Shown: positions 18,001 to 36,000, numbered from the stretch's first letter. The stretch: 64,000 nucleotides of DNA from Candidatus Omnitrophota bacterium (GCA_903908245.1 CAIVRE010000008.1:1432-65431); one strand, 5' to 3'. The notes: generated from the sequence alone by a model not told the origin. Numbers and translations are program-made.

Positions 18001-21000
18001 TTTCGGCCCGTCATACTTGCGGTACAGAACGTCCCGTGCCAGGTCGACCAGGCTCACCTGCTCGGACTGCTGGTTCCCGTGCTGATCGATATATTCGATC
18101 AACGCCAGGACATGCGGATCGAACAACCCTGTCTTCATGAAGCGCCGGGCCGTTACGATCATGTCGTTGCGCAGGACCCCCATGAGCTCATCCTCGGAGT
18201 AAGGTCCGAAACGGCCATGATGCTCCATGAACAGGTCGCAATTGCGCGGCTCCCGGCCCTGCAAGCAGATCCCCTCGTATTTTCCATTACCGGAGATAAA
18301 AATGACTCCGCGCAAATGATAGTGCACAAAGTTCGCCGTCTCCAGCGCGTTAAAGACCCTGAACTCGGCCCGTCCGCCCAGCGCCGGATAGACGGCAAAC
18401 CCGACCGCGACGGACTGACCGGCGCGGGCATCGCACAGCTTCTGCAGCGCCGCCAGGATCTGTTCATGGCCCTGCGGAAAAGCCTCGGCCAGCGGGGCCA
18501 TTATCTCCGACGGAGCCGAACGCAGGTACCCGCACACCCTTCCCGCCGCCATCGGCACCAGGATATGGGAATCGGTCAGCCACCGGAACACGGCGTCCGC
18601 ATCAACCCCTTCCGCGGCCAACAGGTTCTTGTCGATCTCGAGACGATACTGCCGAGCCGCGTTCTCGATCATGGACCTCATCTGCAGCGGATTTACCAAA
18701 GGCTGAAGGACTCTGCCCTGCGGATCAACGTTGACCTGAACATATCTCTCCCTCTCGCTGTCCTTCTCTTTAAAATGCTTCCTGAGCCGGTCTTCCAGCC
18801 GCGCCAGGTCATAGCGCCCCTTGACCTCGCTCCCGGCCAATTGCCCGCCGGCAAGGACATCCTCCGCCCGTTTCTGCGGGTCTGTACTGCCCGCGAACCG
18901 GTAGGCCGCAACAAGAATATCGCGCGCGCCGGGACTGGTCATGAACGCATCGGCCATCCGGTGGACGACCGACTGCTGATCATTGAGTTTCTTGCGGAAC
19001 CGGAAAAGCGACAGCGCGGCCGCGGCCCGTGCCCTGGCCTCATAGACCATGGCCTTCGAGAGCCAACGACGGAGCGGGATACGGGCCTCTCCCTCCATCC
19101 CCAGCTCGACAAGGCCGTAAGAATCATGATCACCGGTAGAGAAGAAATCCCGGTAACCGACAAAACGGACACGGAAATCATTCTTAAGCTCGATCTTCTC
19201 GAAGAACCGCTCAATGTCCTCGACATGGATCGCAATGTAGTCGGTGGTCGGCATCGACCCCAGCGGAGCCTCGTCCCGGGCCTGGTCTTTAAGCAGGGAC
19301 GCTTCCATCAGGCCTGTCATCTCGGCCGCCTCTTTGGTAAGGTCCACCGCATGCCCTTCCAGATGCAGGACCGCATAGCGGGAGGCCAGTTCAAGGGCCA
19401 GGTCGGCGGCCGGAACACCCCTTTTCAATTTGGCGATCGTACTTTCAAAACGGCGCCGGAGGCCTGCGATCTGGACATCCTTGCCGAACACCAGCTCGGC
19501 CGCGACCTTCTCGGCGGCGAGCTTGGCCAGCCGCTCGTGCAGGCGGCCAAAGTCACTGGCCCGAAGCAGGCTGACCGGATACGCCATGCCACGCAGATAT
19601 TTGCCTGCCACAGGCCCGTTCACATCCGGCCGGGACGCCAGATAGGCGAAAGACGTCACGCGCATCTGGTCGGCATAAACAATGTGGAAATAAATATCGT
19701 ACAACAGCGTCTCAAGCAATTCGCCGGAGGTCTTGCTGGAAGACACGTAACGCGCATAGTTGATGCGCAGGCGGCCATCGAGGATCTCGGCAACGTTCAG
19801 GGTCTTTGGATCAAAGGCAAAAAGGACCGAGGCAGGCATCAGGGCCTGCATCCCCGCGCTCTGCAATCCAAAACGGACATGATGTTCCAGCGCGTAATCC
19901 ACGTTCTTGGCAACATCCATCAGGCGGGAGAGTTCATCGATAAAAACCTCGCGCCCTTCACGTAAAAAGAGCTCGTGGAACCAGCCGATAAAAACATGAT
20001 CCATTTCCGTGATGCAAGAGGTCTCTGCCTGACTGGCAACAAGATCGGACAATAAAGTATGGAACGCACCGGCAGAAATGTCGGCCGGCACGGCCCTGGC
20101 ATTAACGAACTCGGTTACGCTCTTTTTATACGCCGCGCGCTGCTGGGCCGAAGAGCGCGCGATCAGCTGCCATGTCTCCCTTTGCACATTAGAGGTCGCA
20201 AATTTGAAATAACGATCTGCCGCCAGCTGGATAGCGACCGCTTCATTACGGGCAGACAGGTATATCTCGACCATATCCCCGGTGAGTTCCGCATCTTTCG
20301 GATCGACCCGGCGCACGTCGGTCAGCCAGGCCACAAATGTCTTTTTATCCACAAAAGAGCCCGGCGCCCAACGGACATCATTCCCGACCCTGGCCGCCAC
20401 CGGGAAATACGAATACAGAAAAATGGCCCCGTAACGATGCCAGGAAACATCCTTCTCGGCCATGACGACCTGGGTCTGATACAGGATACGGGAAACGCGC
20501 ATCAGCGCTTCACGCACCTCTTTGCGGCGGGAACGATAGGCGAACGACCGGAACGTCGCAGACGAAGCGATACGGGCTTCCTTTAAATGCGGCCAGAACA
20601 AAAGACGGAACACGCGCGACAGGACCACGCGCACCACCCCGTGCCAGCCGGCAAACAGCGCCGGCTCACCCAAACGCGCCCGTGACGAAGCAATGGAGCG
20701 CAGCGATAAAAGGAGCATGGCAATTCCCGCGATCCCTCCGGCCGCAAGCAAACACAATGAAACGATATGCGTTAAGGACATCCCGGCCGTGGCCAACACT
20801 ACCGGGAAAACCAGCCAGGCATGGCTGTAGAGTCGAACATCCTTGTCGGCAGGCAATGACGCGGGCTGCTGCCCGGGGAGCTCAACGCCATCAACCGTGA
20901 ACGCCTCGGCCAGGATCCGGCCCCAGGTGCCCGGCGCCAGGTCCCGGCGGGTATAAAGATCTCCCCCGGTGATCCTCCTGGCGGCCTCGATCATACGAAT

Positions 21001-24000
21001 CAGGGTCCTGTGCCACCCCTGCGATGCCACCGTGCGGACAAACGCCGCGCGCAGGCCGGTATTGGCAGGATCGATCTCACCCTTTTGGGCCTTCTCGGCC
21101 AGAAGCTCGTCGATATTGCGGCGTTCTTTGCTGTTAAGCCCGTCAGCCCCGCGTAACAGCACCGGATGCGGTACCAGAACGCCAAACAACGCAACCTTCG
21201 GCGAAAGCCGCTGATATTCTCCGGTCAATTCATGGATCACGATCCCCTGCGTGACCGTATCCACCACCGCGTCACCATTGAAAATGAACAGATACCCGCG
21301 CACATCCTTCATGCCCGCCGCGACACGGTCATATTTGGGCATCTTGTATTCGACCGTCGCGGCAATGGTCATGTCCATATCCGTACCGCGGTCCTCGGTC
21401 TTGGACTCGACCAGATAAACCCCTGCCGGCAGGACATTCGTCCGCTGATCGTTCTCATTCGAAGCCTGAGGCGCATCAACGGTCAATTCAAAATCTATTT
21501 CCGGATTCCCGAATGAGAACCGGGTGACCCTGGAATTCCGGACCGCATCCTCCAGGCTCCTGGCCGCAACAAGCTCGCCAAGGAACTCGACCTGCGGGCG
21601 GCCCCGGCCGTTGAAGATACGATTGAGAGTGAGTTCAACCCCGGGAACACGGCGCGCGATGAAATGCATCGCCGCCCGGAAGATGTCCGCAAACTCCGGC
21701 TCGCCGGCCATGATCTCCAGCGCCTGACGGGCTCTTGCCGACGTGACAAGATCATGCGGCTCATCATCGACCATGGCCGCGCGCTGACAAATATCATTCT
21801 CTGAAGCAGAAGGATCAACAAAATGCAGGAGCTCATGACGTGCGACCTTGCGCAGATCCTGCGGCGGTGCGCGCAAAGCGTAATTGTAGCTGACAAACAA
21901 ACGGCCGGCGGCAATATCAGCCTCGGCAATAATACCGGGGACGCTTTCCTCGATAGCAATACCATAAATATCAATACCCTCTGCGCCTTTACCGATCACG
22001 CGCCGGGCATCCGCCAGTGCCAGACGGACCCTGCCGCGAGCCTGGGCCTTCTCGATGTCCGTAAGCGGCACGCGCGGCTCGGTCTCCCCCTCGGGATATC
22101 CACGGCGCATGGGTTTCAGATGCGCGGTCAGCCACGGCACTTCCTGTGACCCGTACTCCCACAAAGCCGCTCCCGTCAACCAATACACCTTAGCCATACC
22201 ATCCGCGCGCATTTCCAGGAAGATCTGACTGTTGAAATCCAGGCAAAGCTCGGGACGGGCATTGTCAAGCATCGCATCCTTGATCCTCATCCCCGGCGTA
22301 GAAAGAGCCTCGAACCCGCCCCATGTGCCCCTGGAATGCCCCACGACCTGCGGCGGAATGCCTGGCACTGCCCGGGTCTGGTCGGCATCCGCCCAGAAAA
22401 TACCGCCGTACTCATTCCCGAAATTATCACTGGTCCTCGATCCCGGGACCCAGAAAAGCGGATGCGACATCACCCAGGCAATCTTCTCCTGGTCATCCCC
22501 GGCGTCGAGGACGATCTGCGCGGCCATACGAACGAAATCATTGATATACGCGACAACATCCCGGATCATCACCATCTGAACCGGGATCCCCTGCTGACGC
22601 GCCACTTCTTCCTTCAGGGATGCGAACATTTCCGGTACCAGCCCGCCATGAACGAACAGAACCCCTTTATGCAGGTACGCCCCGGGCAACCGGCCGGAAG
22701 CCGTTGCCTCAAGCACATACCTGCGCATTGCTTTATGTTCCGGCGTTGATTCGATCTGAAGCGAGCACAAAACCTTGTAAATACGGCTCACATGCCGGCC
22801 GCCGCGGATCTCGCCAAAGACCTTTAGCGGATCATTGGCCGCCTCCCAGCGCGCCCACCCGCCGGCGACAGGCGAAAGGTATTTCTGCTCGATCATCCAG
22901 TCGAACACCGACTCATCATCCGTGAACGCGCCCTTGCCAACGAATCCGTCGGCATTCCAGAGCATCAGCTCGTGATTCCCCATAAGCGTGACCACGCGCC
23001 CGCCGGCCTTCCCGGCCTCGACCTGCAGCGTTTCCAGGAAACGGAAAACGCTCATTGTATTGCGGATCCCCTCTTCGGTTTCCTGGCGCGTCACATCCCC
23101 CAGCTGAATGACCGTCGTATCGCCGCCGATCCAATGGTCCTGGTCATCGATCACCTTCATAAAACGCAAATGCGCGATCACGGAATCCAGCCATCCGTGA
23201 ACATCCGCCAAGACCACCGTACGGCCGGCCTTGTCATCAGCAGTGATCACCTTTGAAGTCGGAAGCGCCTGGACTTTGAAAGCGGACGTAGACGCCGGTA
23301 TCACGGGATCAGCCTTTACAACAGCCTCTTGGCTCTTCTTTCTCAACATCCAGGCAACAACAGAACCGGCCGCCAACGCCAAAAGCCCGGCGAGAGACGC
23401 ATAGAGGATCCACAGGTTGTTCACCGCCGGATGCGGCGCCTGCGGAACCACAGCTGATTGCGTTGCCGGGACATTGGGGACAATATTCGTGGACGGAACC
23501 GCGGGCTTAATGACCGCGGGAATCGTCGCAGGCTGAGCCGGAACATTAGTGACCGGTGTCACAACAGGCGCCGGAACCGTCGGCGCCACAGGCGCGGGCG
23601 GCTGAACAACCGCGACCGGCCGAGCCACTTTCTTCATCAACAGCTCGCGGACAACTTCCGCCGCAGGCTTGGGCGTCAGGTCGCTCTTGAAAAGACCAAA
23701 ATCATTCTCATTGGCGAAATTGTCATACGCCATACCCTCATGCCTGGCGCTGCCCGTTTTCCAGGACTCGTTGGTGAGCTCGAAAACAAACATACCCTTA
23801 AAGCGGGGATCCTTTGCCTTGTCGAGGCCCGCGATCATGCTCTTCAAAATATTACCGACCGCGCGAGTCTGCATCGGCGCATCCTCACGGCCGGTACGAT
23901 TGTTGAAAGAATCGGCGCCGGCCTCACCGAGCACAAGATGGACATCCTTCGGCATCCCCTCGGCAGAAAGCATCTGCTGCCAATCCCTGATGACACTCGC

Positions 24001-27000
24001 CGGAGCATCCCAGCGGTAAACATTGGCGAACCAGGTCTTGATCCCGCTGGAACGAACAGCCTCAGCCGTTGGCAGATCGGCCGTAGCAGAGGCCACCAAA
24101 ACGTTGGGGAAATTCCTGGCGATCCAGTCGGCCGCCGCGTTGCGCTCTTTCTGCCACTGCGCAAGGCTGCCGGCATAAGTCTTGTTCTCTTCTTCATTGC
24201 CCAGGACGATATAACGCAAAGCCGGATGACCGGCAACAGTGCGTAAATATTCCTGATAACTGCCGTTCTGGATATCGCGGCGCTCGATACCAACCGATAC
24301 CATCAGGCCGCGCTTAGCCGCTTCATCCAAAGTTTCCTTAGGCGTGAAAGAATAGGTGCGGATATCAGTAAAGCCGTAGGCACGGGCCAGGTCCATCATG
24401 GCCGGAGCTTTTTCCCAATGATGCTGCTTGCCGTTAAACGTCGAGAAGCACACGCCGCGGATCGGCATAACGCTATTGAGCTCGTCGCGGTTAACCCAGG
24501 TAACATCGGCCGCTATAGCCGGCGGAGCCAGCGTTTGCGGAACATTGTTCTCGATCTGCCGAGCAGGCTCATTCGGACTGGCGCGATCCGGAGCTATTAC
24601 GGCCGCCGGGGCTTGCGGTACAGCCGTCGGAGCTGTAGTAACCATCGTCGCCGCGGGCAGTACAGGCATCGGGGTATTATTAACACGCTTCGAATCCATC
24701 GGGGTCAGGAACAGCAAGGCAAGAAGGACGGCGCCAAAGATCCATTTTCTGATATGGGACATGCGGGACATGGCCGCGGAAGCACTGACCTGCGGCACAT
24801 CAACGCTATTAACCTCTGTGACCATCGTGTTAAATGTCGCGCGGGCCTTTGCCTCATTATTGCCATTGGCGTCCAAAAGACCCTGCCAGAACGCCTTGAA
24901 TTTCTTGTTCGTTGCAACAGCCGCCACCGACGCCTTCGCGATCGCTGTTTCACGCGCCGCATCAATGCCCTTCTGCATGGAAGCGGCCTGGGCGTCACTG
25001 ATCGCTTTCGCGAAAGCTTTCCTTGCGCCCGCTTCATCATTATAAGTCAGGGTCATGGCCTTCTTGAGGCCGGCATCAACCCCGCCCCAAATAACATCCG
25101 TCACCAACGAAGCAATATTGTCATCCTTGCGCGCTTGACGGATATCCGCGACTGCGATCGTTTTCAACGCGATCTCTGCCTGCTTGGCCTTACTATCTGC
25201 CTCGACCTTTTTAGCGTCTTCTTTGACTTTCTTCGCGGCCTCTTCGGCCTTCTGAGCGTCTTCCGCAGCCTTTTTCGCAGCAGCCTTGACCGGATCCGCC
25301 GCATCCCTGGCCGCGGCTTCTTTGTCCGCCGCCGCCTTCTGCGCCGCCAATTCAGCCGACGTCCTGGCGCCATTGACCTTCGCAGCCCCGGCCTGGACCT
25401 GAACAACATCAACCGCCGCCACTTTTGCCTGCGCCAGGAAGTTCGCGGTCACGGCCGGATCAACATTCTTAAAGCCCTTCACCGCCGCTGCCATATCAAC
25501 CGCAGCCAAACTCGCATTTACACCGAACACCCCGGACAGTACATGAACGAAACAACGAACACCGCCCCACAAAGACAGGAATATAAACGCCCCCAACTGC
25601 ACAAGAGCCTCGATCCCGATAAAAGACATGAACCGATCTATAACCTTGCTCCGGAAACCAGACTTACGATCGATCGCAATCGGGGCATATTCCATTTCCG
25701 TCAGCAGCCAGTCGATCGTCTCCAGTTGCTCGCGGGTCGGAGCGCCATTCAATGTTTCTTCCGCTCTCAGAAGCTGAGCGCGCAAGCCCTCAACCATATC
25801 AGCGGCACCCCTGACCAGTTCAAGCGCAGCGAGATATTTCTTCAGATATTCAATGCGATTCAACAGATCATACGCGAACGGATTATAATTGGTGCCATTG
25901 ATCGCCGCCCCCTTAAGAGCGCTCACTTCCACCGGAGCCGGGTAGACATAATCATCAGCGGAAGCATATGCCGCCTTGCCCGCCATCGGCGCATCGCGCA
26001 GGACCGTCAAGGCACGGAAGACCGACGGCAAGGAAGCACGCGTATACAGCCGGCGGGCATGCCCAGGATAAATATGGTACAGGCTCAGGACCTCAGCGAA
26101 TGGCTCATCCCCGCTCTTGCCAACCTTGGCCGCCGCATTAAGAATGCTCTTCTGCAAACGATCCTCGGCATTCCGAAGAACCGGCAGGAACCCGCTCAGC
26201 TTGTACTGCATCCGCTCGATGATATCGATCACGCCCCAGGCAAAGGCATAGCCGACATGACGGGCATTCTCAAGGCGGTCACTGATCTTATGATCCGTCC
26301 GGGCCGGATTTAAGATGAACGGCGCGCCAACGCCGGCCAGCGGCATAAGCATGGTCACGATCCAAAGGACTGCCTTGGCCGGATGGAACCCGACCGCGAT
26401 AAGCACGATCAAGGCGAAACCGGCCGCAGTCTGGATCGCCGGAGAACTGCGCATATAAACCGCCTGCCAATCCAGTTCACGCTCAATGTTCCCGCCCTTG
26501 CCACCCGTGCTGATAAAGCGCCCCAAACGGCTGGCCGCGAGTTTGCCAATGGTCTCGTTATACACAAAGATCATATGAACATAGAAAACAAACAACCTCG
26601 GGAAACCGGCAATGGTCTTGGCAATACCGCCGATATACCCGTTGGCACGGTCAAAAATGTTGTAGCAAAAGAGCCCTGAGCTGATCGCCTGCGACAAGGC
26701 CTGGGACCCGACCCACAATACCAGCGGCAACCCGGAGAAGAGGTTCCAGTCAAGGACCAGATAGAACGGCACCAACCACTTGAGGTAACGGACGATCGAC
26801 GGCTTCTTGAAATAGAACCCGAACCCGTCAAGCCAGAGGTTATTGGCCAGATACGGCCAATCCACGAACGGCGACATCATCATCTTGAGGTTGGTGCGGC
26901 CGGTCGCCGACTCAACAGAATCGTACGACCACTTGCGGATCGGATTACGGGCCGCCTGGAACTGGTTCGGCCAGCCTTTTTCGTCCTTCACATAACCGGC

Positions 27001-30000
27001 ATAACCCGTGATATAACCGAACCGGCGATAATTCATGGCCGTAAGTGCGTCCTCGGCAACGTACGAATCCGTGATCCCTTCCGACCAACGCAGCGCCGAC
27101 ACGCGCTCAAAAAGCTTGCCGTAAGCCGCAAGCCCGCCGAAGAGCGTCTTGCCCCTCATCGCGTGATAATAGAACGCATTTTCCGAAGTCGGCAGGATAC
27201 TGCCCAGAGGCCCGACATCCTGGGTGATCGTGTGTTTAACGACCGGAGTCGAGGTGGCCAGGCCGGGATTATAGAAGAACTCGTTAATATGGGCTGCAAT
27301 GAACTGGCTGTCCACCATATTGGCGCGATGGTCCGCGTCGATATTCAGGACGACCGGGCCGATCAAATACGGCAGGACACATGTTTTCTGATTCCACTTG
27401 GCGCGATGATAGATCTCCTGCTTGTCGCTGAACTTCGGCAATGATGTCCCTTCCAAAAGCAGGCCGGGGAACACACGGTCATTGCGGATCAGGCCGAACA
27501 ACATGCGCAAGCCTTCAGTCTTTGCCAAAAGCTGGACGATCTCCGCCGCCGTAAGGCCTTTGATGACCTGGCCATTGGCATCCAGTTTGGCTGTATCCGC
27601 ATAATTGGTCTCAATAAGAACATCAACAACCTGCCGCAATTTACCATTAAGAGCATTGTTCAACGCCGCCAGCGTCCCGAGGTTGCGCTCGATGACGCGG
27701 ATCTTTGTATAAGCCGCGTTCTCCTCAACACCGAACTGACGGGCATAAGACTTCGCTATTCTCAAGAGCACGTCCTGATGCGAACGGGCATTATTGTAAC
27801 CGGTCGGCAATTGACGGTTAGCCCATTCCTTGATCTCGGGCCAAACAGGCCATTTCACAAGCCCGGCCGGCATATAGCGCGGATCCTTGACCATCTTGAG
27901 GATCTCCTTGCGCTTGGCCGCATCATTGACCAAACGATCGACCATCAACAGGAACGCTTCCGTCTTGTACTTGGCCAGCATACCCAGGCGATGCGTGAAC
28001 TGCTCTGTGCCATCAACCTGCTGGGTAACCGTAAGGCCCGCATCATCGAACCAGTAATCTTCCGTTGCGCCATTGATCAGCAGCGTCATCGGGATCAGGT
28101 CATCCCAGCTCATCGGTTCCAGGCCCTTATCCTGACGATAATTCCCGTTAATATATTCGATCAAGCGAACGATGCCGATACGGTCATCATTCCTGGCTTT
28201 AACCCCGTCCACCACGACCCGGCGAGCCATCTGGGCCACCAGCGCCTCGATCTCAACACGAAGAGCCTTCAGCGCAACTGCCCTGCCAACCCCCATCGCC
28301 TCGACCAGGCTGTCCAGACGAGCCGCGATCGGAGTTCCGATCGTCGACACATCTTTAGCGAAGAAGTTATACCCGTTATTGGCGACCATCTCGCGAATAA
28401 CCTCAACAAAGAACGCCAGGCGCTCCTGGCCACGGGTCGTATACTGCGTACCGATAGCCGGAGTTTCATCGCCAAACAGAGACATCAGGCGACTTACGAC
28501 CTTCCCCGGGCTCTTCTTATTGTTCAACTCGTAGACATTGTTGACCCAGTTGTACCCGAAGCTCGCCATCCCCATGAAAAGATAATTGAACGCATAGAAA
28601 CTCAGGCGCCATGTATCAAGGAAGATGAGGGCCGGTATGACCTGCAAACCGATCTGCAACCAGACCGGCACTGCAATGATCAATGTCGGCAAGCACAGCG
28701 ACCACGGGAAGACCACGGCCGTAATAAGCGCCAGCGCCTGTGCCGCGTAGAACCACATCAGGCGGGAGCGCAGCTTCTTGATGATCGCGGCCTTCTTGGC
28801 CTCAAGCGCCTTGACCACCTGCTCGTTATCCTTGTTCTTGTCGATCGCCTTCTCCAACGCTTTAATATGAGCCTCAAAAGATCTGGTCAAACGCACCTTG
28901 ATCAGGGCACCGAAAATAAGGCCCATCAACGATGCAAATGCTCCCATGATCATGCCCCACGGCATGGCCACAAAATTGGCCACGCCCACACCCTTGACAA
29001 TAAGCCCGGCCGCCGGGAACGCCAGCCAGATGAACAGGGCGCTGACCGTGCCGATCAACGTATAATGATAAACACGGCGCATCAGGTCGCGGGCCGTCTG
29101 GTTATACGCCCCGCCCTGGGAGAAGATGGCCCGGCGCCAGGACCGGCTACTCACAATGGTCCACAGCGCGATCGCATTGATCTTCCACATGGCCAGGCGT
29201 GTCTTGACCACCGGCATGCCGATCTCCTGATCGACCGCGTTGACGAACGCCAGCATGACCGGCTTGAACTCGCGCAAGAAATCCTTGATCGCTTCCTCAC
29301 GCTGGGCTTCAGGGACCGCCAGAAGGCCCTGCATCTGATCCAGCATCGCTTCCATGGTCTGGCGCAGCGGCGCAACTTTGGCCAATGTTTCGGCAGATAA
29401 AGTCCAGCCGGGCGTCTTGATGGTCGGATCCTTCTGGCCCAGGAGATAACGGAACGCATCGTTATAGATCTCTTCGGCAATGATCTCATGGAAGTTCACA
29501 ACTTTGCCCTTGGGATCGCGATTCAATTCCAGACGCTCCTGTGTCTCATTGTTGAGCAACACATGGAACACCTGCTTGAATATCTTGACCTTGTCCAGGA
29601 AGTTCGTGCCGGCAAAGGAGCCGTTGACCGTAAGCGCCGGATAAGCATATTTGGCCCAGAGATAATCCTCGGCGCGGCCCTGGCCGGCCAGCCCGAAGAG
29701 GGCGCGCTGGAAGATGACCTGCATCACAAAAAGTTTCTCGACCGAGACCAGGGCGTTACGGACCTGGCGTTCCATATCGGGCATCTTATGCAGGTCGTCC
29801 CAGGCGTAAACAACCATACCGCTTGTGACATCAAACGTATTAAAGCTGAAAAGCTCCGGCAGCTTGCGGGCATTAAAGATATTGGCGAAGAACGTCTGTT
29901 TGAGCGCCTGGATCTGGTCAGGGAACGCTTTATCGAACCCGGTATCCGTAATGACCTTGTCCGCCGCCGCCTCAACCCTGGCCTCAAAATCCTTATGCTT

Positions 30001-33000
30001 GACCATCTCGGCATACAACCGGACAAGAATGGCCTGCGCGGCACGGCGTTTGTCGAAAGTATTCACCAGGCTCTTCACATAACCGGAATTGAGCACCGCG
30101 CTGATCTTGTTCATGCTCATCAATGCCTGAAGCATCGACTCAAACGCATTCGCCGCATTCTGCTCGGAAGCCTCCACGCCGTACAGCGCCTTAAGCTCCG
30201 CCATGAACGCCGCGATATCCCCGGCCGCGGCAAGTCGGGCAAGATCCGCGCCATCAAAGGCATTACGGGCGATCGTATAGCGGAAATACTTCACGTTGCT
30301 CATCGCCGTGTTAAAACGCGCCCTGGTCATCCAGCGGCGGAAAAGATGGCCGGAAAGAATATTGAGCTGCTGCAGCCTGGCTCCGATACGAGCCTTAAGG
30401 TCCGCCTCATTCCTGTAAGCCCCTTTAAGCTGACGCTCCCGCACGATAAGCTGCGCCTGCGACAGGGTGAAGCCCATCGATTCGAACGTCTGGACGCCAT
30501 CCCCGTTCACATCGGTCCTGGAACGGTTGCGCAACTGATAGAACCGGTGGCCGGCGAACGGCAGGAAGAACCCGATCGTAAGCAGAAGAGCGATCATCCC
30601 GCCGACAAACCAGCGGGCCCCGATACCGGCCTGCTCGAGCGCGCTCATCCAGGTCGAACCTTCCTTGCCTTCATACGCCCCGACCGCCGGGTTCTCGGCG
30701 TTGATCTTGACCTCCTGGCCGTACTGCTCGACATTCGCGATAACATTGTTGTATTCACGGTCCACGACCTTCTGGCCGATCCACCCGAACGGGCCATTGC
30801 GGAACACATCTTCCATATCAAAGATCGATGAATACGGCGTCGTATTATGGCTGAAGCGCTCCGCGGTCCAGACGCGGCGGCCATTCTTGAGCAGCATCTG
30901 ATGGTCCTTGTTGACCCAATTGGCCGCGACCTCATAACCGCTATCCGTCGCCAGCTTTTCCGTGACCAGCTGCCAGACATTCCCCTGCTCGTCGGCCCAA
31001 ACCTTGTTGACCATGCCGCGATAGGCATATTCCTTGCCATCGACCATCCGGTTAACAAAGACCGGATAACCGTTCATGTAATAAACGCGCAGGGTCATGG
31101 CGCTGTATTCGCGATGTTCGTAATACAGCCCCGTCGTGAGGTTAAAACGCGTATCGACATTGCGGACCTTCTCGATCCCCTCACGGCTGCCCGTGTAGGT
31201 GACCATCGACGTGACCGGATCGAAATCCGTATAGGTGGTCTCGCGCAGGACATTACTGCTGCCCGCGACGGTAATAATGCCGGGAGCGATAACGATCTGG
31301 CCGCGGGACAAGTCGCCCATCCCTTTGCCCCAGAGCTTGTTGATGCTAACCTCACCGCTCATGCTCACGCGGGCGATATCACGGGTCAGCGGATCATTGG
31401 GGACCTGATAACGGCTGGCATAGGCCGCGGCTTCCGTATAGGTGCCGTTACGCCAGATCAACGGGATCTCACGCAGCTGCTGGATCCTGCTGTCCGCTGT
31501 CAGCCCGACCACCGCAAACTCGGCGACCTGGCCGTCCACGACTTCAGATAATGCCTTATAACCGTTCGAGTGCAGCCGATAGAGGCGGCCGAATGCCAGG
31601 TCCGTGTTCCCGGGCATCTGGATCATGTAACCATCGGTCGGCTTATCCGCGCTCCAGGCGGCGTTAAGGATCACATCCTGATTACTGCCCGGACGGAGCA
31701 CCGCGACAATAACACGGGCATTCACATCACCATGGATACGATAATTCACGGAGATCTGGCCATAACGGGTCTCAACGGCTTTATCGACAACGATCTTGTC
31801 CAGCGGCCTGCCGGCCAGCCCGAGCTCGCTGAGGATCGCCCTGTAACCCGTCTCAAAACCATTCTCGACAACAGTCCCGTCATCGCGCGTGACCATGTGG
31901 TCCTTGTTCACATAGCCGAGAATATTATCGCCGGCTGTCCCCCGGACCATATCCAAAACAGCCTTCAGGTTGGTCGTTTCAGTCGCAACACCGAGGACCT
32001 TCTCTCCGACAACAAAACTATTGCCCTTCAGTTCCGCGAGATAGGTGGCTCCAACATTCGCATTCGCGACATCCCTGATATAAACGCTATAACCATCGCC
32101 AGGCACACGTTCGATCTTGCCGATCTCCTCGTTCGTATTGCGGTCGACAATAAAGAACTTGTTGTTCGTGGCCGGATCAAGATCATCCTCTTCCGCGATG
32201 ACCACGTCATGGATATTGGCACCCACGATGGTATATTGCGTGCGGATCGCCTGGCCGATCACCGTTCCGAAATCGATCTGATAACCCGGATTAAGCTTGT
32301 AAATATTCCGTAACGGGGCTTCTTTATAACCAACAATGACCTTGCCGTCGACCGGAACGCCATTGGCAAGAACGGTCGGATAAACCTCAACATATTCCTT
32401 GCCCTGCTCCGCTTTATTCTCCGCGCTCTTGATAACGCCCATGACCCGGTCCAGGATGCCGTGCACGCGGCGTTCATAAAGCTGGACCGTACGGCCCTGC
32501 AGGACAGGATCCTCGATCAGCGCCCCGATCTTTTTCGTGTCCGCGGCATACGAACCGTCCAGCAAATAAGTAACCCGCCCGGAAGCGACATCCAGCACCG
32601 TAGCTTTGGCGCGATTCTCTGGAAGGAAGATCATTTCCACCACATCATCGTCGAACGACTTTTCTTCCAGGGTCGGGTCAACCGCCCTGCGGGCGTTATA
32701 ATCCAGCGCCTCCTGCGACGTCGCGATCCGGGAAAGTTCATAATATTTCGAGCGCACAAAGTCATAGGCGCGGGCATCCTTCCTTAAAAGATCAGCGCTC
32801 ACGAAGAACGGCGCTTCAGGAACATTCACCAGGAAGAGATCCTTCATGCCTTCCCCGCTGAGGAGCCGATATTCCATCTTGCCGGTATAAACATGGACCA
32901 GGCGGAAGAACTCGACCGTATTGTTATTCTCGTCAAGCCGCTGGATGCTCTGCACCTTCCCGGCCAATTCTTCGGCATTCGCCATGATCTGCGCCTCGCG

Positions 33001-36000
33001 CATCCACTGGGCAACCCCGTTATTGCCGACAACCAGGCGATAATCCCTCACGAGCTCCGCCATAGTCGTCGCCGTAATATCGATCGGGGCCACCAGCTGG
33101 TTGGCCTTGAGCGTAACCACCATCTGCAGGAACGGACGATACACAACTCCATCAACCCTGACGAACTTTTCCTTGCCCTGCGCCTGGATGACCGCTTCGC
33201 CCTCGTCGAACTTCCCGTTGCGGTTCTCATCCTGATAATAAGGATACCCGTTATTCCAGCGGACATGCTGGAGCGCGGCGCGGCCTTCCCTGATCTTGCC
33301 CAGGAGATAAGACGAATCCTGAATTTCAAATTCCGGCTGTGCTGTCCTGGAAACGATCACCGTCTTGAACGTTCCATCCGCCAGCTCTTCAAAAACCTCA
33401 AAACCATTCTTCAGGGCTTCGATCTCGGCATTGATCCGCACCACGCGCGCCTCGATGGCCTTCACGCCAGGCTCGAAAACCTTGACCACCCCGTTCTCGA
33501 CCAGGACCATCGTATCCGCGCCGAAAACCCTGCCATTGATCGCATACAGGTTGCTCTGGCCGATCTGCTGGGCGCCCTTGGTATAACGGGCCGGCATGAA
33601 CGCCTTCACATCATCCATGCTGCCCACCACGGTGGCTTCCTTGCCGACAACGATATGCCCGAACCCGTTGATCCCGTCAATGCGCGCCTGATGCTCAAGC
33701 TTCTTGTTGGCCACATCCACCTGCCAGGCATTAAGGGTCTTGACCGACGGCTGGAAAATGCCCGCGATATCGCCGCGGAAATTCAGCTTCACGAACCCGT
33801 CCTCGGAAAGGCCCAGCACCTTCGCCTGGGCCTGGACTTTCTCTCCCGCCCAGCGGACGACCACCAGGCCATCGGTATTATCCACCGCCCTCGGCAGGCC
33901 GGTATTGTAGAAGATCACGCCGCCGCGGTTCAGCCCGCTCAGCACGATATCCTTGACCGCGTCACTGCCTTCCATGGAATACTTCATCTGGTCGATGCCC
34001 TGGCGGATCTTCTGCACCAAAGCCGCATCGGTCAGGCCGGGACGGGTACGGAACCCGTCAAACTCGCGGGCATCGTCAACCACCGTACGGGTCATGCCGC
34101 CGAACGAAGCCCAGTTATACCAGGACCGGCGGAACTCGTCGGTCACATAATCAGTGAAAATATTCCCCTTGGCCGGAGCGCGGACCGCAGGCTCGATCAC
34201 AAGGGCTGCATTGGTCCGGCCAACAGCCTGCATGGCCCGGGCACGATCAGGGCCAAGGTCCTCAACGCGCACAGCCACCGTACCCGCGGCCGGATATTCC
34301 GACCGGCTCGCCGTATAAATATCAATGATCCGCGTTGAATGCGGGACCCACTCGCCATTACTGCCTTTTTCGTAAGGACCGCTGTCATCCTTGCGGAACA
34401 CGCCCATCAGGGCGCCCGTATCCTGACGATAGACCGCGACCCAATTCCCATTGGCCACGGGCAGGCGCTCATTTAACGCGGCGCTGACGCCCGCTTCCAG
34501 GCGGTTCTCACGATTGCCTGTCTTTGTGCTGTTCCCGCCTTCATCAGGAGAATAGAAGGACGCTTCGCCCATAAACGCCCGGCCATTAGAGATCTGCGCC
34601 GCCGGGCCATTCTCCTGGCGCAGCGAATCCGTTACCATCTCGACGATCTCGCCCGAAATAGGATGACGGACAACCTGCAGGATCTGGTGGCCCTGCCTGT
34701 CGTAACCATTGATGAACGCTTTCTCTTTAAGGAGGGCATTGGTCGAAAGGCGGGCCTTCATGACCATGGTATCAAAATTATCAACATTGAACTCGCCCTG
34801 CAGGAAGCCCCTGGTAATGAAGCCCGGGGAAGCGAACACGTGGCGGGCGATCAGCTTGCCATTCTCGATCTTGCAGATGATCCCGTGGATCGTCGCGCGG
34901 CGGGCATCGCCCTGGTCGTTCTGCTTCCAGCCATTGGTCGCCTTATCCAGGGAATAGAAATGCTTGTCGCTGGTATTCGGCTGATAGATCTCCAGATAAA
35001 CCGTGTTGCTATCGCCATTGACCGCGGCAAGATGGTTATAAACGAGCTGATACGGGCCATACGCCAGCTGATCTCCCAGGTTCTCGAAATTGAAATGCTT
35101 GTTCACATCGCCGAAAAGTTTCCACAGCGGCGTAAGCTGATGGCCGGTCAGGCGGTCCATCGCGCCGGGCAGGGCACGAACAGTATCGAGCGCGCCCAGG
35201 CTCATCACCGTAGCCTCACGCGCTTTATTGTCCTGGTCATGGAACTCAACATCGGTCCAGTTCCACACCAGGGTGTTGAAGATGCCCTGGACCGGATTCT
35301 TGTCCGTATGATAAAGCTTGGTCTGGCCGCGGCCCGCATGCGTAACAGCGTAGGAATAGATCTCGGCCGCATGATCCGCCAGGATGGCCGGCCCGGCGTA
35401 AGCGCTGAATCCGGTGCCAATACCATTCTGCATCAAACCGGTAACGATCTGATAATCGGTCGCGAACCGCTTGCCCGGATGATCGATATCCAGGATCAGG
35501 GTGTTCGGGCCTGTACCATTGATGGAAACCATCGGGAAGTTATAATTCATGACATAACTAATGGCGACCGGGAAATTGGCATTGACCGTGCTGACCCCCT
35601 CCAGGGCCTTGTTCTCCCGAAGCTTCTTGTCAATATTCTCCAGGCGCTCGGCTGTCGTCTTGCGGCCATCCTTCTCCTTTTGCGCCTTTTCCAGGTTTAC
35701 CAGCGCGCCATTTTTAGGATCGTTCAGGTTCTGGTCCAGGGAAGCCGCGCGGACATCCTGCTCTTGCTTGGCCTTCTCTAATTTGGCAACTTCATCCTGG
35801 ATCGCCGCAATACCCACCTGAGCCTGTGTCAACTGCCCTTCACGGCCTCCATTCTCACCAACCGGAGCAAGATTAGCCGCAAGCATCCCGACAAGCGTGT
35901 TGGTATTCGGCCCCTTAATATCATAATTAATGCGAATACCACGAAGTGAATGATCTTGGAAGAAGCTCTCTTTAAGCTTGTAGGTTGCCCAGACATGTTC

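What the first reader, a model, noticed from the sequence alone, without database searches (positions are those of the whole stretch)
25480..30620. About 1,700-aa polytopic membrane module in the middle of the protein, plus at least eight further isolated TM helices elsewhere
Many helix-length hydrophobic runs appear in 30.6-25.5 kb. Single or paired TM segments appear at about 37.9, 37.25, 36.4, 24.7, 23.4, 20.8, 17.66, 10.7, 6.5, 3.0 and 1.0 kb. Soluble enzyme domains alternate between TM segments, so the chain probably threads the membrane repeatedly, placing catalytic domains on both sides. Glycoside hydrolases and a Ca/Mn phosphatase would be outside, and ATPases and PEP/kinase-type domains inside.
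Basis: inference. Interest (0 to 1): 0.6.

Follow-up and report, generated by a model that had tools for sequence, protein, structure and literature searches.

The report
Glucan-synthase-like module inside giant gene
The hydrophobic stretch is real and is a hidden sugar-polymer-making and -exporting enzyme, related to the fungal cell-wall glucan synthase FKS1, built into a bacterial (Omnitrophota-type) protein of more than 21,000 amino acids; the scattered membrane helices elsewhere are already known for such proteins.

Summary
The whole window is one stop-free minus-strand frame of 21,333 codons, open at both ends. Its nearest relatives are giant genes of Omnitrophota.

The 25.5-30.6 kb region is not a continuous polytopic block. 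It lies within a conserved ~2,400-aa cassette (window 25,354-32,562) shared by otherwise unrelated giant proteins. In order, it holds one TM helix, a ~500-aa helical domain, 4 TM helices, a ~600-aa GT-A glycosyltransferase domain, 4-5 TM and interface helices, a ~230-aa stretch and a TM hairpin.

A family profile hits FKS1/GSC2 1,3-beta-glucan synthase at E=1.7e-24, against 4e-6 for BcsA. An AlphaFold model (pLDDT 81.6) matches Fks1/Fks2, BcsA, HAS, CesA and Chs. The DxD, ED, K/R-W and gating-loop-like motifs are conserved. Pfam does not detect the window's own sequence.

The most likely function is a processive polysaccharide synthase and exporter. Scattered TM helices in these giant proteins are already published. 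I found no report of the synthase cassette in the papers I searched.

The parts
1..63999 (-). One uninterrupted reading frame of 21,333 codons, open at both ends. It is an internal piece of a giant gene.
   Evidence: the only stop-free stretch over 800 codons. Pfam domains fall in this frame (for example GDE_C at 2e-82). Related loci L001-L004 are equally stop-free.
25354..32562 (-). Conserved ~2,400-aa cassette (aa ~10480-12882). It is shared with other giant genes whose flanks are otherwise unrelated.
   Evidence: 57, 46, 38 and 35% identity to L001-L004 over this span only; in the giant-protein fragments retrieved, almost the only part matching this protein is the cassette (exceptions: two short L001 matches just upstream and one L002 match at aa 18839-19129); 72 representatives at E<1e-3.
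30610..32562 (-). Upstream conserved part of the cassette (aa 10480-11130). It is predicted extracytoplasmic and its fold is unknown.
   Evidence: Conserved in L001-L004, P0001, P0008, P0011, P0013 and P0017. The AlphaFold model has pLDDT ~25 here. No Pfam hit.
30553..30609 (-). Single TM helix, aa 11131-11149, followed by the conserved basic flank FYQLRNR (out-to-in).
   Evidence: hydrophobicity conserved in 5 sequences. (F, Y, Q, R, N, R invariant).
29056..30552 (-). ~500-aa all-helical domain (aa 11150-11648), cytoplasmic by inference. It sits where the FKS1 accessory domain sits, but shows no detectable similarity to anything solved.
   Evidence: pLDDT 70-92 for model residues ~690-920, all helices; no Foldseek hit at E<1; 40% identity to P0001.
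28621..29055 (-). N-terminal TM bundle of the synthase: 4 helices (aa 11649-67, 11682-700, 11750-68, 11775-93).
   Evidence: AlphaFold helices H2-28, H41-81, H86-127 and H139-179.
26821..28620 (-). Cytoplasmic GT-A glycosyltransferase domain (aa 11794-12393).
   Evidence: profile A5 positions 408-1010 align to FKS1 residues 831-1503, E=1.7e-24. Foldseek matches Fks2/Fks1 at 2e-9, BcsA at 2.5e-7, and also HAS, CesA and Chs; pLDDT mostly above 90.
27331..27339 (-). DAD (DxD) motif, aa 12221-12223. It aligns with the DAN motif of FKS1.
   Evidence: D12221 in 27/27 and D12223 in 23/27 family members. alignment. FKS1 DAN motif from PMC12715860.
27049..27054 (-). ED motif (VAEDA), aa 12316-12317, the position of the catalytic base in this fold.
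   Evidence: E and D in 27/27. Aligned to FKS1 'NEDI'.
26929..26937 (-). R-K-W, aa 12355-12357, at the position of QxxRW in GT2 synthases and of K-I in FKS1. E12363 follows.
   Evidence: K/R in 27/27, W/Y/F in 27/27, E12363 in 25/27. alignments.
26311..26820 (-). C-terminal TM and interface-helix bundle (aa 12394-12563), ending in the conserved PF(I/F)(L/F)NP motif.
   Evidence: helices H754-775, H784-810, H814-850, H879-895 and H907-922.. One search aligns this region to the FKS1 TM region up to 'APFIFNP'.
26494..26517 (-). FISTGGKG loop, aa 12495-12502, resembling the FxVTxK gating loop of BcsA and 'ISTGRGF' of FKS1.
   Evidence: F in 25/27, T in 21/27, K in 24/27. alignment ('FistkgKggn' against 'YISTG-RGFA'). 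The comparison with the BcsA motif is from my own knowledge.
25498..25632 (-). TM hairpin, aa 12790-12834, at the end of the cassette. It is poorly modelled.
   Evidence: pLDDT below 50.
36349..37938 (-). Three to four TM helices upstream (aa 8688-8706, 8910-8928, weak 9175-9193, 9199-9217). The last looks like a signal peptide (PIRR + h-region + ASA).
30610..36348 (-). ~1,900-aa stretch (aa 9218-11130) between a signal-peptide-like helix and a stop-transfer-like helix. It is inferred to be extracytoplasmic if the GT domain is cytoplasmic.
   Evidence: Inference plus the cytoplasmic location of GT-A domains in this enzyme class (PMC12715860). Composition is rich in V, G, N and T. No Pfam hit.
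23359..24753 (-). A signal-peptide-like helix (aa 13083-13101) and a stop-transfer-like helix (aa 13529-13547) bracketing ~430 aa.
20701..20817 (-). TM hairpin, aa 14395-14433.
17632..17688 (-). Hydrophobic, signal-peptide-like segment, aa 15438-15456.
10621..10737 (-). 39-aa uncharged stretch, aa 17755-17793, forming one strong TM helix or a hairpin.
6442..6561 (-). 40-aa stretch, aa 19147-19186, forming one strong TM helix or a hairpin. Its start resembles that of aa 17759.
907..3039 (-). Two TM hairpins, aa 20321-20360 and aa 20978-21031.

Best explanation
**What it is.** The window is an internal 64-kb piece of an Omnitrophota-type giant gene of more than 21,333 codons. The hydrophobic region at 25.5-30.6 kb belongs to a conserved ~2,400-aa cassette. 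Its C-terminal ~1,250 aa form a membrane-integrated, processive glycosyltransferase with the cellulose-synthase-like fold. The closest solved relative is the eukaryotic 1,3-beta-glucan synthase FKS1/FKS2 (GT48).

**Architecture along the chain:**
1. a single TM helix;
2. a ~500-aa helical cytoplasmic domain;
3. four TM helices;
4. a ~600-aa GT-A catalytic domain carrying the K, DAD, YGK, ED and (R/K)W..E motifs;
5. interface helices plus four TM helices with an FxxTxxK loop and a PFxxNP motif;
6. a ~230-aa stretch;
7. a TM hairpin.

**Shown.** The homology, the fold, the conservation of the motifs, and the conservation of helix hydrophobicity across homologues.

**Inferred.**
- The GT domain faces the cytoplasm and takes a nucleotide-sugar (UDP-glucose is the obvious guess).
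- It adds sugars one at a time and pushes the growing glycan through a channel made by its own TM helices to the outside, as BcsA and FKS1 do.
- Anchoring the topology on a cytoplasmic GT domain puts the ~1,900 aa upstream (aa 9218-11130) outside the membrane. The product would therefore emerge next to an exported part of the same polypeptide.

**The other helices.** The isolated helices elsewhere look like single-span anchors or helical hairpins. Signal-peptide-like and stop-transfer-like segments alternate along the chain. This is the known build of these giant proteins, and their exact sidedness cannot be settled here.
For: **Single giant frame and its relatives**
- One stop-free frame of 21,333 codons.
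- Nearest relatives are Omnitrophota MAG proteins and loci, all stop-free over 4,163-7,391 codons.

**Cassette conservation**
- Identity of 35-57% over aa 10480-12882 only.
- 72 representatives among 1.84 billion proteins, 35 of them at E<1e-30.

**Homology to glucan synthase**
- Pfam Glucan_synthase or Glyco_trans_2_3 hits in family members.
- Of 18 family members scanned, 5 hit Glucan_synthase (best 1e-24) and 3 hit Glyco_trans_2_3.
- The 18-sequence profile hits FKS1 at 1.2e-18 and BcsA at 2e-10.
- The 32-sequence profile hits GSC2/FKS1 at 1.7e-24 over ~670 FKS1 residues (831-1503), and BcsA at 4e-6.

**Fold**
- AlphaFold model of aa 11641-12840: pLDDT 81.6, pTM 0.82.
- All 36 Foldseek PDB hits at E<=1e-3 are membrane-integrated GT-A glycosyltransferases, nearly all processive polysaccharide synthases: Fks2/Fks1 at 2e-9 to 1e-7, BcsA at 2.5e-7, then HAS, CesA, Chs1 and PcManGT; Cgs follows at 4e-3.

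**Motifs**
- K12201, D12221, Y12293-G12294 and E12316-D12317 are in 27/27 members.
- D12223 is in 23/27.
- K/R12356 is in 27/27 and the aromatic residue at 12357 in 27/27.
- E12363 is in 25/27.

**TM helices**
- Hydrophobicity is conserved in 4-5 homologues.
- The positive-inside pattern agrees with a cytoplasmic GT domain. Flanking K+R counts before/after each helix are 1/4 at TM 11131, 3/1 at 11649, 1/4 at 11682 and 2/0 at 11758.
Against: - The window's own sequence matches no Pfam, NCBIfam or PDB entry by itself. The assignment rests on family profiles and a predicted structure.
- Foldseek TM-scores to FKS are moderate (0.40-0.44), with large rmsd.
- The helix count (~10-12) differs from the 17 of FKS1.
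- The FKS1 'DAN' motif is 'DAD' here, and there is no canonical QxxRW.
- No substrate, product or activity can be inferred from sequence.
- Nothing here shows that the cassette works while still part of a >21,000-aa chain rather than after cleavage.
- The upstream half of the cassette (aa 10480-11650) has no assignable fold.
- Sidedness rests on the positive-inside rule and on analogy with known enzymes, not on a trained topology predictor.
Confidence: 0.8

Rival explanations
1. The hydrophobic segments are only membrane anchors. The GT-like domain is a decayed, catalytically dead relic that serves as a scaffold within the giant protein.
For: The window's own sequence falls below every Pfam threshold. 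The canonical QxxRW motif and the FKS 'DAN' motif are not reproduced exactly. Giant-protein domains are reported to be highly divergent (10.1101/2023.11.21.568195).
Against: The residues that matter are invariant or nearly so across 27 members that are otherwise only 17-77% identical: D12221, E12316-D12317, K12201 and Y-G at 27/27, and D12223 at 23/27. This is the signature of purifying selection on an active site. The cassette is the best-conserved part of these proteins.
Confidence: 0.08
2. The module is a protein-conducting or insertion device for the giant protein itself. It would work with the SecA-like ATPase domains rather than as a glycan synthase.
For: West-Roberts et al. propose that divergent SecA_DEAD domains and the adjacent TM regions help export the giant protein (10.1101/2023.11.21.568195). 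A weak SecA_DEAD/ResIII signal exists at aa ~4928-5300.
Against: No fold or profile hit at E<=1e-3 is a protein translocase; all are membrane-integrated glycosyltransferases. The SecA-like signal is below threshold, lies ~6,000 aa away, and has no PDB sequence match.
Confidence: 0.02
3. The frame is not one functional polypeptide. Either it is cut into many proteins after or during translation, in which case the TM helices are ordinary signal peptides and anchors of separate enzymes. Or the 64-kb contig is partly a chimeric assembly.
For: Several internal hydrophobic segments look like N-terminal signal peptides, some preceded by Met: aa 13076-13101, 15421-15456 and 9195-9218, the last with an ASA|N site. 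Third-position GC jumps from ~0.47 to ~0.65 at aa ~6600-6800. Peptidase domains that might cleave giant proteins are discussed in 10.1101/2023.11.21.568195.
Against: No stop codon occurs in 21,333 codons, and relatives show the same. The cassette itself lies far from the GC3 step, and its internal order is conserved in at least 10 independent contigs. Cleavage would not change what the cassette is.
Confidence: 0.1
4. The hydrophobic runs are chance products, or buried cores of soluble domains, in an Ala/Leu/Val-rich protein.
For: Five of the 45 windows with KD>=1.6 are exactly that: P/A/V linkers at aa 6641, 7152 and 7418, a P-loop strand at aa 4965 and a DUF1152 strand at aa 18168.
Against: There are 17 regions with dG<=1.5, against 3.5 expected. 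The segments are charge-free 19-24-aa runs with K/R-rich flanks and low hydrophobic moment. Their hydrophobicity is conserved in homologues. They are modelled as membrane-length helices around a synthase fold.
Confidence: 0.02

Closest known systems
Fungal 1,3-beta-glucan synthase FKS1/FKS2 (GSC2), CAZy GT48; PDB 7XE4, 8JZN, 9WZS
   Same: - A GT-A domain inserted between two TM bundles, with the cellulose-synthase-like fold.
- The profile aligns over FKS1 residues 831-1503 at E=1.7e-24, and FKS proteins are the best Foldseek hits.
- Shared K..NQ, (I/L)DA(D/N), YG(K/H), (A/N)ED, K.(..)E, (I)STG(G/R)(K/G) and APF.FNP motifs.
- A helical cytoplasmic domain precedes the first TM bundle.
   Different: - The host is bacterial, and the enzyme is embedded in a >21,000-aa chain.
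- It has ~10-12 helices against 17 in FKS1.
- DAD (canonical DxD, which implies a metal) stands where FKS1 has the metal-independent DAN (PMC12715860).
- K-W stands where FKS1 has K-I.
- There is no detectable FKS1_dom1 or accessory-domain similarity.
- Rho1 regulation cannot apply.
- The window sequence does not reach the Pfam PF02364 cut-off.
Bacterial cellulose synthase BcsA (GT2; PDB 4HG6, 4P00)
   Same: Same overall mechanism class and fold. It has DxD and ED motifs, an R/K-W after the catalytic base, an FxxTxxK-type loop before the last TM pair, and a 4+4 TM layout similar to the one here.
   Different: The match is much weaker than to FKS (E 4e-6 against 1.7e-24) and covers only the GT core. 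There is no PilZ domain and no BcsB partner. The Q of QxxRW is absent.
Giant 'Archaeovorin'-type proteins of Omnitrophota, including the 39,678-aa protein of 'Ca. Velamenicoccus archaeovorus' (42 predicted TM helices)
   Same: - An uninterrupted ORF of tens of kilobases, with dozens of scattered TM helices.
- A mix of sugar-metabolism, HATPase, PEP/PPDK-type, HAD and GNAT domains.
- A weak SecA_DEAD-like signal, and mostly unannotated sequence.

Sources: PMC10066038; 10.1101/2023.11.21.568195; 10.64898/2026.06.07.730766.
   Different: Those studies list soluble GT1 and GT5 glycosyltransferases. In the texts I searched they do not mention a membrane-integrated FKS/cellulose-synthase-type module. 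Here the TM-rich core is assigned to such a module.
Cyclic beta-1,2-glucan synthase Cgs (PDB 8RF9)
   Same: A very large bacterial membrane protein that combines a processive glucan-making GT domain with other carbohydrate-active domains in one chain. It is a weak Foldseek hit (E 4e-3).
   Different: It belongs to a different GT family and has a different domain order. The similarity is far weaker than to FKS or BcsA.

Membership tests
Omnitrophota giant ('Archaeovorin'-type) proteins | Uninterrupted ORF of more than 10,000-30,000 codons | tested here: met
   At least 21,333 codons without a stop, open at both ends.
Omnitrophota giant ('Archaeovorin'-type) proteins | Encoded in Omnitrophota genomes | tested here: inconclusive
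   The window's own source is unknown. All named relatives of the cassette but two are Omnitrophota or Omnitrophica MAGs. The exceptions are an Elusimicrobia fragment and a bin labelled Planctomycetales.
Omnitrophota giant ('Archaeovorin'-type) proteins | Numerous TM helices scattered along the chain (about 1 per several hundred residues) | tested here: met
   About 25-29 helices in 21,333 aa, all after aa 8,687. Compare 42 helices in 39,678 aa (PMC10066038) and a mean of 22 at >=10 kAA (10.64898/2026.06.07.730766).
Omnitrophota giant ('Archaeovorin'-type) proteins | Divergent SecA_DEAD helicase domain | tested here: inconclusive
   SecA_DEAD scores 17.4 bits (cut-off 24.6) and ResIII 17.3 bits. 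DEAD scores 21.5 bits (cut-off 26). No PDB sequence match.
Omnitrophota giant ('Archaeovorin'-type) proteins | Sugar-metabolism, HATPase, PPDK-type, HAD and GNAT domain content | tested here: met
   GDE_C 2e-82, Alpha-amylase 1.5e-8, PEP-utilizers_C 1.7e-30, HATPase_c 4e-6, DUF218, weak HAD and weak GNAT. Metallophos 2e-5.
GT48 / FKS 1,3-beta-glucan synthases | Sequence match to Pfam Glucan_synthase (PF02364) above its cut-off of 37.2 bits | tested here: not met
   The window sequence has no hit at E<=10. Among relatives, P0071 scores 108 bits, and 5 of 18 family members hit at E<=0.01.
GT48 / FKS 1,3-beta-glucan synthases | Profile-level homology to FKS1 across the GT domain and the following TM helices | tested here: met
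   E=1.2e-18 (A2). E=1.7e-24 over FKS1 residues 831-1503 (A5). FKS scores far better than BcsA.
GT48 / FKS 1,3-beta-glucan synthases | GT-A domain inserted between two TM bundles, with the cellulose-synthase-like fold | tested here: met
   AlphaFold model with pLDDT 81.6. Foldseek top hits are Fks2 and Fks1.
GT48 / FKS 1,3-beta-glucan synthases | Metal-independent 'DAN' motif in place of DxD | tested here: not met
   The sequence here is D-A-D (aa 12221-12223). D12223 is in 23/27 members. The FKS1 feature is from PMC12715860.
GT48 / FKS 1,3-beta-glucan synthases | 17 TM helices plus an N-terminal accessory (AC) domain | tested here: not met
   There are about 10-12 helices. A helical domain sits in the AC position, but it has no detectable similarity to anything solved.
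GT48 / FKS 1,3-beta-glucan synthases | Makes beta-1,3-glucan from UDP-glucose | not testable with these tools
   This needs an enzyme assay and linkage analysis.
GT2 processive synthases (BcsA/CesA/HAS/Chs type) | D, DxD, (T)ED and QxxRW motifs | tested here: inconclusive
   DxD is present (DAD) and ED is present (27/27). The QxxRW position reads P-I-R-K-W: the R/K-W is kept and the Q is absent.
GT2 processive synthases (BcsA/CesA/HAS/Chs type) | Pfam Glyco_trans_2_3 or Glycos_transf_2 above cut-off | tested here: not met
   The window sequence scores 9.9 bits at E=0.82, against a cut-off of 27. Some relatives pass: P0053 at 31.9 and P0071 at 35.3 bits.
GT2 processive synthases (BcsA/CesA/HAS/Chs type) | Same fold, with a channel-forming TM bundle under the GT domain | tested here: met
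   Foldseek matches BcsA at 2.5e-7, HAS at 3e-5, CesA at 1e-4 and Chs1 at 8e-4. Whether the helices form an open channel was not examined, because model coordinates could not be inspected.
GT2 processive synthases (BcsA/CesA/HAS/Chs type) | c-di-GMP-binding PilZ domain after the last TM helix (specific to BcsA) | tested here: not met
   No PilZ hit in aa 12564-12900.

The most novel reading that the evidence does not exclude
The TM-rich core conserved among Omnitrophota giant proteins is a bacterial lineage of FKS-like (GT48-related) glucan synthases that works while still part of the giant polypeptide. It would extrude a glucan directly beside a ~1,900-aa exported domain of the same chain. 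This would build the polysaccharide 'coat' or attachment matrix of these ultra-small predatory or episymbiotic cells. If so, giant proteins make surface polymer as well as degrading prey walls, and the lineage could bear on where the eukaryotic GT48 enzymes came from.
Probability: 0.2. Interest if true: 0.8.

Novelty: new variant of a known kind. Interest (0 to 1): 0.55.

Why it matters
Giant Omnitrophota proteins are among the largest known and are almost entirely unannotated. Published surveys report their many TM helices but give those helices no function, and call the topology ambiguous.

Showing that the best-conserved, most TM-dense part is a processive glycan synthase and exporter does three things:
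- It gives that region a concrete, testable job.
- It supplies an anchor point for the topology, because the GT domain should be cytoplasmic.
- It suggests that these proteins build surface polysaccharide, not only degrade it.

It also adds a family of FKS1-related membrane synthases, so far seen almost only in Omnitrophota-type bacterial contigs, that Pfam-based annotation cannot see. That is relevant to the evolutionary link between the GT2 cellulose-synthase-type enzymes and the eukaryotic GT48 glucan synthases, which are antifungal drug targets.

The part of the finding about scattered TM helices is ordinary for this class of protein.

Tried and rejected
**Searches that found nothing**
- Direct searches with the window's own module sequence returned nothing usable from Pfam at E<=0.01, NCBIfam or the PDB. 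Even at E<=10, Pfam gives only Glyco_trans_2_3 at 0.82.
- The word-index protein search found 1 hit with the 1,761-aa module and 4 hits with the family alignment. It is nearly blind to these proteins. The exhaustive HMMER search was what opened the case.
- A 5-sequence profile of the whole cassette finds nothing in the PDB, because it is not diverse enough.
- PDB sequence searches of the DEAD/SecA-like regions (aa ~4734-5600 and ~7234-8033) found nothing relevant. I therefore do not use them as firm cytoplasmic markers.

**Structure prediction that did not resolve**
- In the AlphaFold model of the upstream half of the cassette (aa 10480-11660), the first 646 residues are unmodelled (pLDDT ~25). 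The helical domain has no Foldseek match at E<1. The idea that it is an FKS1 accessory-domain homologue is unsupported.

**Topology attempt**
- I tried to close a single consistent topology for all ~28 helices using the positive-inside rule plus domain logic. It fails downstream of aa 13548 and was abandoned.

**Rejected as TM helices**
- aa 3109, 4965, 6641, 7152, 7418 and 18168.

Full report
**1. What the window is.** Translating all six frames shows that the minus strand of window 1-63,999 is a single stop-free frame of 21,333 codons that runs off both ends.
- The 35 ORFs of 150 aa or more that the ORF lister reports, mostly on the plus strand, all lie on top of this frame.
- Known domains and homologues fall in the minus-strand frame.
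- Codon i starts at window coordinate 63,999-3(i-1).
- The finding's 25,480-30,620 is aa ~11,127-12,840.

**2. Checking the observation.**
- With the Hessa 'biological' scale, 19 non-overlapping windows have a summed dG of 4 kcal/mol or less and 0-1 charged residues. Most have a K/R-rich flank on one side.
- Regions with dG<=1.5 number 17, against 3.5 +/- 2.0 in shuffles that keep the composition of each 200-aa block.
- Hydrophobic moments are low (0.02-0.31), so the helices are not amphipathic.
- No such segment occurs in aa 1-8,687.
- A few hits of the simple filter are false: P/A/V-rich linkers at aa 6641, 7152 and 7418; a P-loop strand at aa 4965 inside a ResIII-like match; and a strand at aa 18168 inside DUF1152.

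Inside 25.5-30.6 kb the helices form four clusters: aa 11131-49, 11649-11793, 12394-12563 and 12790-12834. They are separated by ~500, ~600 and ~230 soluble residues. '1,700-aa polytopic module' therefore overstates it.

**3. Relatives.** The word-index search found one relative, a partial Omnitrophota protein 40% identical over the first 723 aa.
- A scan of one genome per species found four loci, three labelled Omnitrophota or Omnitrophica and one labelled Planctomycetales. Each is stop-free over its whole length of 4,163-7,391 codons.
- BLASTP shows that what they share with this protein is one block, aa ~10,480-12,882 (window 25,354-32,562), at 57, 46, 38 and 35% identity. Homology stops at the block's downstream edge even where 2,000 more residues are available; only L001 (two short matches just upstream) and L002 (aa 18839-19129) share anything else.
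- An exhaustive HMMER search of 1.84 billion representatives with aa 11641-12840 gave 72 hits, 35 of them at E<1e-30.
- Nearly all of those hits are fragments of very long proteins. Where a source name exists it is Omnitrophota, apart from one Elusimicrobia fragment.
- The hydrophobic region is thus part of a conserved cassette carried by otherwise divergent giant proteins.

**4. What the cassette is.** The most widely shared sub-region is aa ~12,194-12,600. It also occurs in 500-1,000-aa proteins that hit Pfam Glyco_trans_2_3 and Glucan_synthase, the FKS family. One of these is a complete 949-aa gene next to an outer-membrane efflux gene.

An alignment of 27 family members shows these conserved motifs:
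- HxAK(W/Y)NQ, with K12201 in 27/27;
- LN(I/L)DADH, with D12221 in 27/27 and D12223 in 23/27;
- YGK, with Y and G in 27/27;
- YVAED, with E12316-D12317 in 27/27;
- (R/K)W..D..E;
- F(I)xTxGKG;
- PFxxNP.

The profile and structure evidence is as follows:
- An 18-sequence profile hits FKS1/GSC2 1,3-beta-glucan synthase at E=1.2e-18 and BcsA at ~2e-10.
- A 32-sequence profile of aa 11641-12840 hits GSC2/FKS1 at E=1.7e-24. The match covers FKS1 residues 831-1503, that is, most of the GT domain and the following TM helices up to 'APFIFNP'. BcsA scores 4e-6 and matches only in the GT core.
- AlphaFold2 on the same alignment gives pLDDT 81.6 and pTM 0.82.
- All 36 Foldseek matches to the PDB at E<=1e-3 are membrane-integrated GT-A glycosyltransferases, nearly all processive polysaccharide synthases: Fks2/Fks1 (2e-9 to 1e-7), BcsA (2.5e-7), hyaluronan synthase, plant CesA, chitin synthase and PcManGT; Cgs follows at 4e-3.
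- The window's own sequence is invisible to Pfam, NCBIfam and the PDB on its own. Domain surveys would have missed it for that reason.

**5. Anatomy.** The cassette reads as follows:

| Residues | Element |
|---|---|
| aa 10480-11130 | Conserved, unmodelled, no family |
| aa 11131-49 | TM helix followed by the conserved FYQLRNR flank |
| aa 11150-11648 | All-helical domain; pLDDT 70-92 in its core; no structural match |
| aa 11649-11793 | Four TM helices |
| aa 11794-12393 | GT-A domain |
| aa 12394-12563 | Interface and TM helices, with the FISTGGKG loop between them |
| aa 12564-12789 | ~230-aa stretch |
| aa 12790-12834 | TM hairpin |

This order parallels FKS1, which runs accessory domain, TM1-6, GT domain, TM7-17 (PMC12715860), but in a leaner form close to the 4+4 layout of BcsA.

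**6. Mechanism.**

Shown: homology and fold, conserved catalytic-type residues, and conserved helix hydrophobicity in homologues.

Inferred from how this enzyme class works (PMC12715860, and BcsA from my own knowledge):
- The GT domain sits in the cytoplasm.
- It binds a nucleotide-sugar through the DxD motif. DAD rather than the DAN of FKS1 suggests a metal.
- It uses the ED aspartate as the catalytic base.
- It threads the polymer through a channel formed by its own helices.

The K/R distribution fits this orientation. Flanking K+R counts before/after each helix are 1/4 at TM 11131, 3/1 at 11649, 1/4 at 11682 and 2/0 at 11758. With the GT domain inside, aa 9218-11130 must be outside. That stretch begins after a helix that looks like a signal peptide (PIRR, an h-region, then ASA|N) and ends at the stop-transfer-like TM 11131. 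The product cannot be named. A beta-glucan is a guess by analogy.

**7. The other helices and the sidedness claim.** Downstream there are:
- signal-peptide-like segments at aa 13076-13101 and 15421-15456, both preceded by Met;
- stop-transfer-like helices at aa 13529, 14415, 17775, 19168 and 20978;
- hairpins at aa 14395-14433, 20321-60 and 20978-21031.

Read literally, these bracket exported stretches at aa 13102-13528 and 15457-17774. The second bracket contains GDE_C, alpha-amylase and both PEP-utilising domains together. The Metallophos domain comes out cytoplasmic.

In an alternative reading, the 39-40-aa uncharged stretches at aa 17755-93 and 19147-86 are hairpins and aa 15438 does not span the membrane. 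Everything after aa 13548 would then be cytoplasmic. I cannot decide between the two readings. The published studies report the same ambiguity (10.1101/2023.11.21.568195).

**8. Comparison with what is known.**
- Giant Omnitrophota ORFs with many TM helices are established. The 39,678-aa protein has 42 helices (PMC10066038).
- 94% of 916 long proteins carry TM helices or a signal peptide, with a mean of 22 helices at >=10 kAA (10.64898/2026.06.07.730766).
- This window has about 25-29 helices in 21,333 aa, which is typical.
- Those papers list GT1, GT5 and starch-synthase domains. In their text I found no membrane-integrated glucan or cellulose-synthase-type module.
- No paper in the library combines 'Omnitrophota' with 'glucan synthase'. 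That library is incomplete, so this is absence of evidence only.

**9. Verdict.** The scattered helices are ordinary for this protein class.

The module is a new variant of a known kind: an FKS-related synthase with the cellulose-synthase fold, carrying DAD instead of DAN and about 10-12 helices, conserved as a cassette inside giant bacterial proteins.

My confidence that it belongs to this enzyme superfamily is about 0.9. My confidence that it is an active glycan synthase and exporter is about 0.6-0.7. The identity of the product is open.

Noticed in passing
window ~43,600-44,200 (aa ~6600-6800): Within the single reading frame, third-position GC steps from ~0.47 (aa 1-6600) to 0.63-0.71 (aa 6800-21333). 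Lys/Arg usage shifts in parallel: K 6-7% and R 3-5% before, K 2.8% and R 8.8% at the far end. This points either to a mosaic origin of the gene or to an in-frame chimeric assembly join.
   Followed up: partly
window 36,349-36,417; 24,697-24,774; 17,632-17,739 (aa 9195-9218, 13076-13101, 15421-15456): Internal segments have the build of N-terminal Sec signal peptides: a basic n-region, an h-region and a small-residue c-region. Two begin with Met and one ends in ASA|N. They could be relics of once-separate secreted proteins fused into the giant ORF, or internal export signals.
   Followed up: no
window 10,621-10,737 and 6,442-6,561 (aa 17755-17793, 19147-19186): Two 39-40-aa uncharged stretches share a similar opening, CAAWPALILMAPSAGG... 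and CHAWLAAPVILSAIGVSP.... Each is followed by a strong helix and a K/R-rich tail. They may be a repeated hairpin-anchor motif.
   Followed up: no
window ~30,330-30,520 (aa ~11160-11225): Directly after TM 11131 lies a motif that is invariant in five cassettes: D.N......F.SMGFT..QAQ.I..R...G.Y. From memory it resembles the ComEA-type helix-hairpin-helix signature. Pfam does not detect it.
   Followed up: partly
window 41,692-44,079 (aa 6641-7436): Pro/Ala/Val-rich low-complexity linkers, for example VIPAVTSVVAQAPAVPVIT, pass a hydropathy threshold but are not TM helices.
   Followed up: no
window 1-43,300, plus strand: Many long plus-strand ORFs, up to 778 aa (7489-9825), lie antisense to the giant frame. 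No domain or homologue evidence was sought for them. They look like shadow ORFs of a GC-rich coding strand and could mislead gene callers.
   Followed up: no
window 47,200-50,900 and 39,900-42,300 (aa ~4928-5300, ~7507-7605): The SecA_DEAD, ResIII and DEAD signals are all below Pfam cut-offs, and these regions have no PDB sequence match. The helicase- or SecA-like nature of these parts is unproven here.
   Followed up: partly
P0052 (949 aa) on an 11.9-kb ENA contig: A complete stand-alone relative of the synthase domain sits beside an outer-membrane efflux (OEP) gene, a B12-binding/radical SAM gene and a Mg-chelatase-like gene. The family is therefore not confined to giant proteins.
   Followed up: partly
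L003 (CAZAXH010000003.1, 348-kb contig), 1-21,724: A bin labelled 'uncultured Planctomycetales' carries the same cassette in a 7,241-codon stop-free frame that runs off the contig start. Either the bin is mislabelled or giant genes with this cassette occur outside Omnitrophota.
   Followed up: no
window 10,936-16,557 (aa 15815-17688): GDE_C (2e-82), a GH13 alpha-amylase catalytic domain and PEP-utilising mobile and C-terminal domains follow one another with no TM helix between them. This is a glycogen/alpha-glucan and phosphotransfer block whose predicted 'outside' location is implausible.
   Followed up: partly
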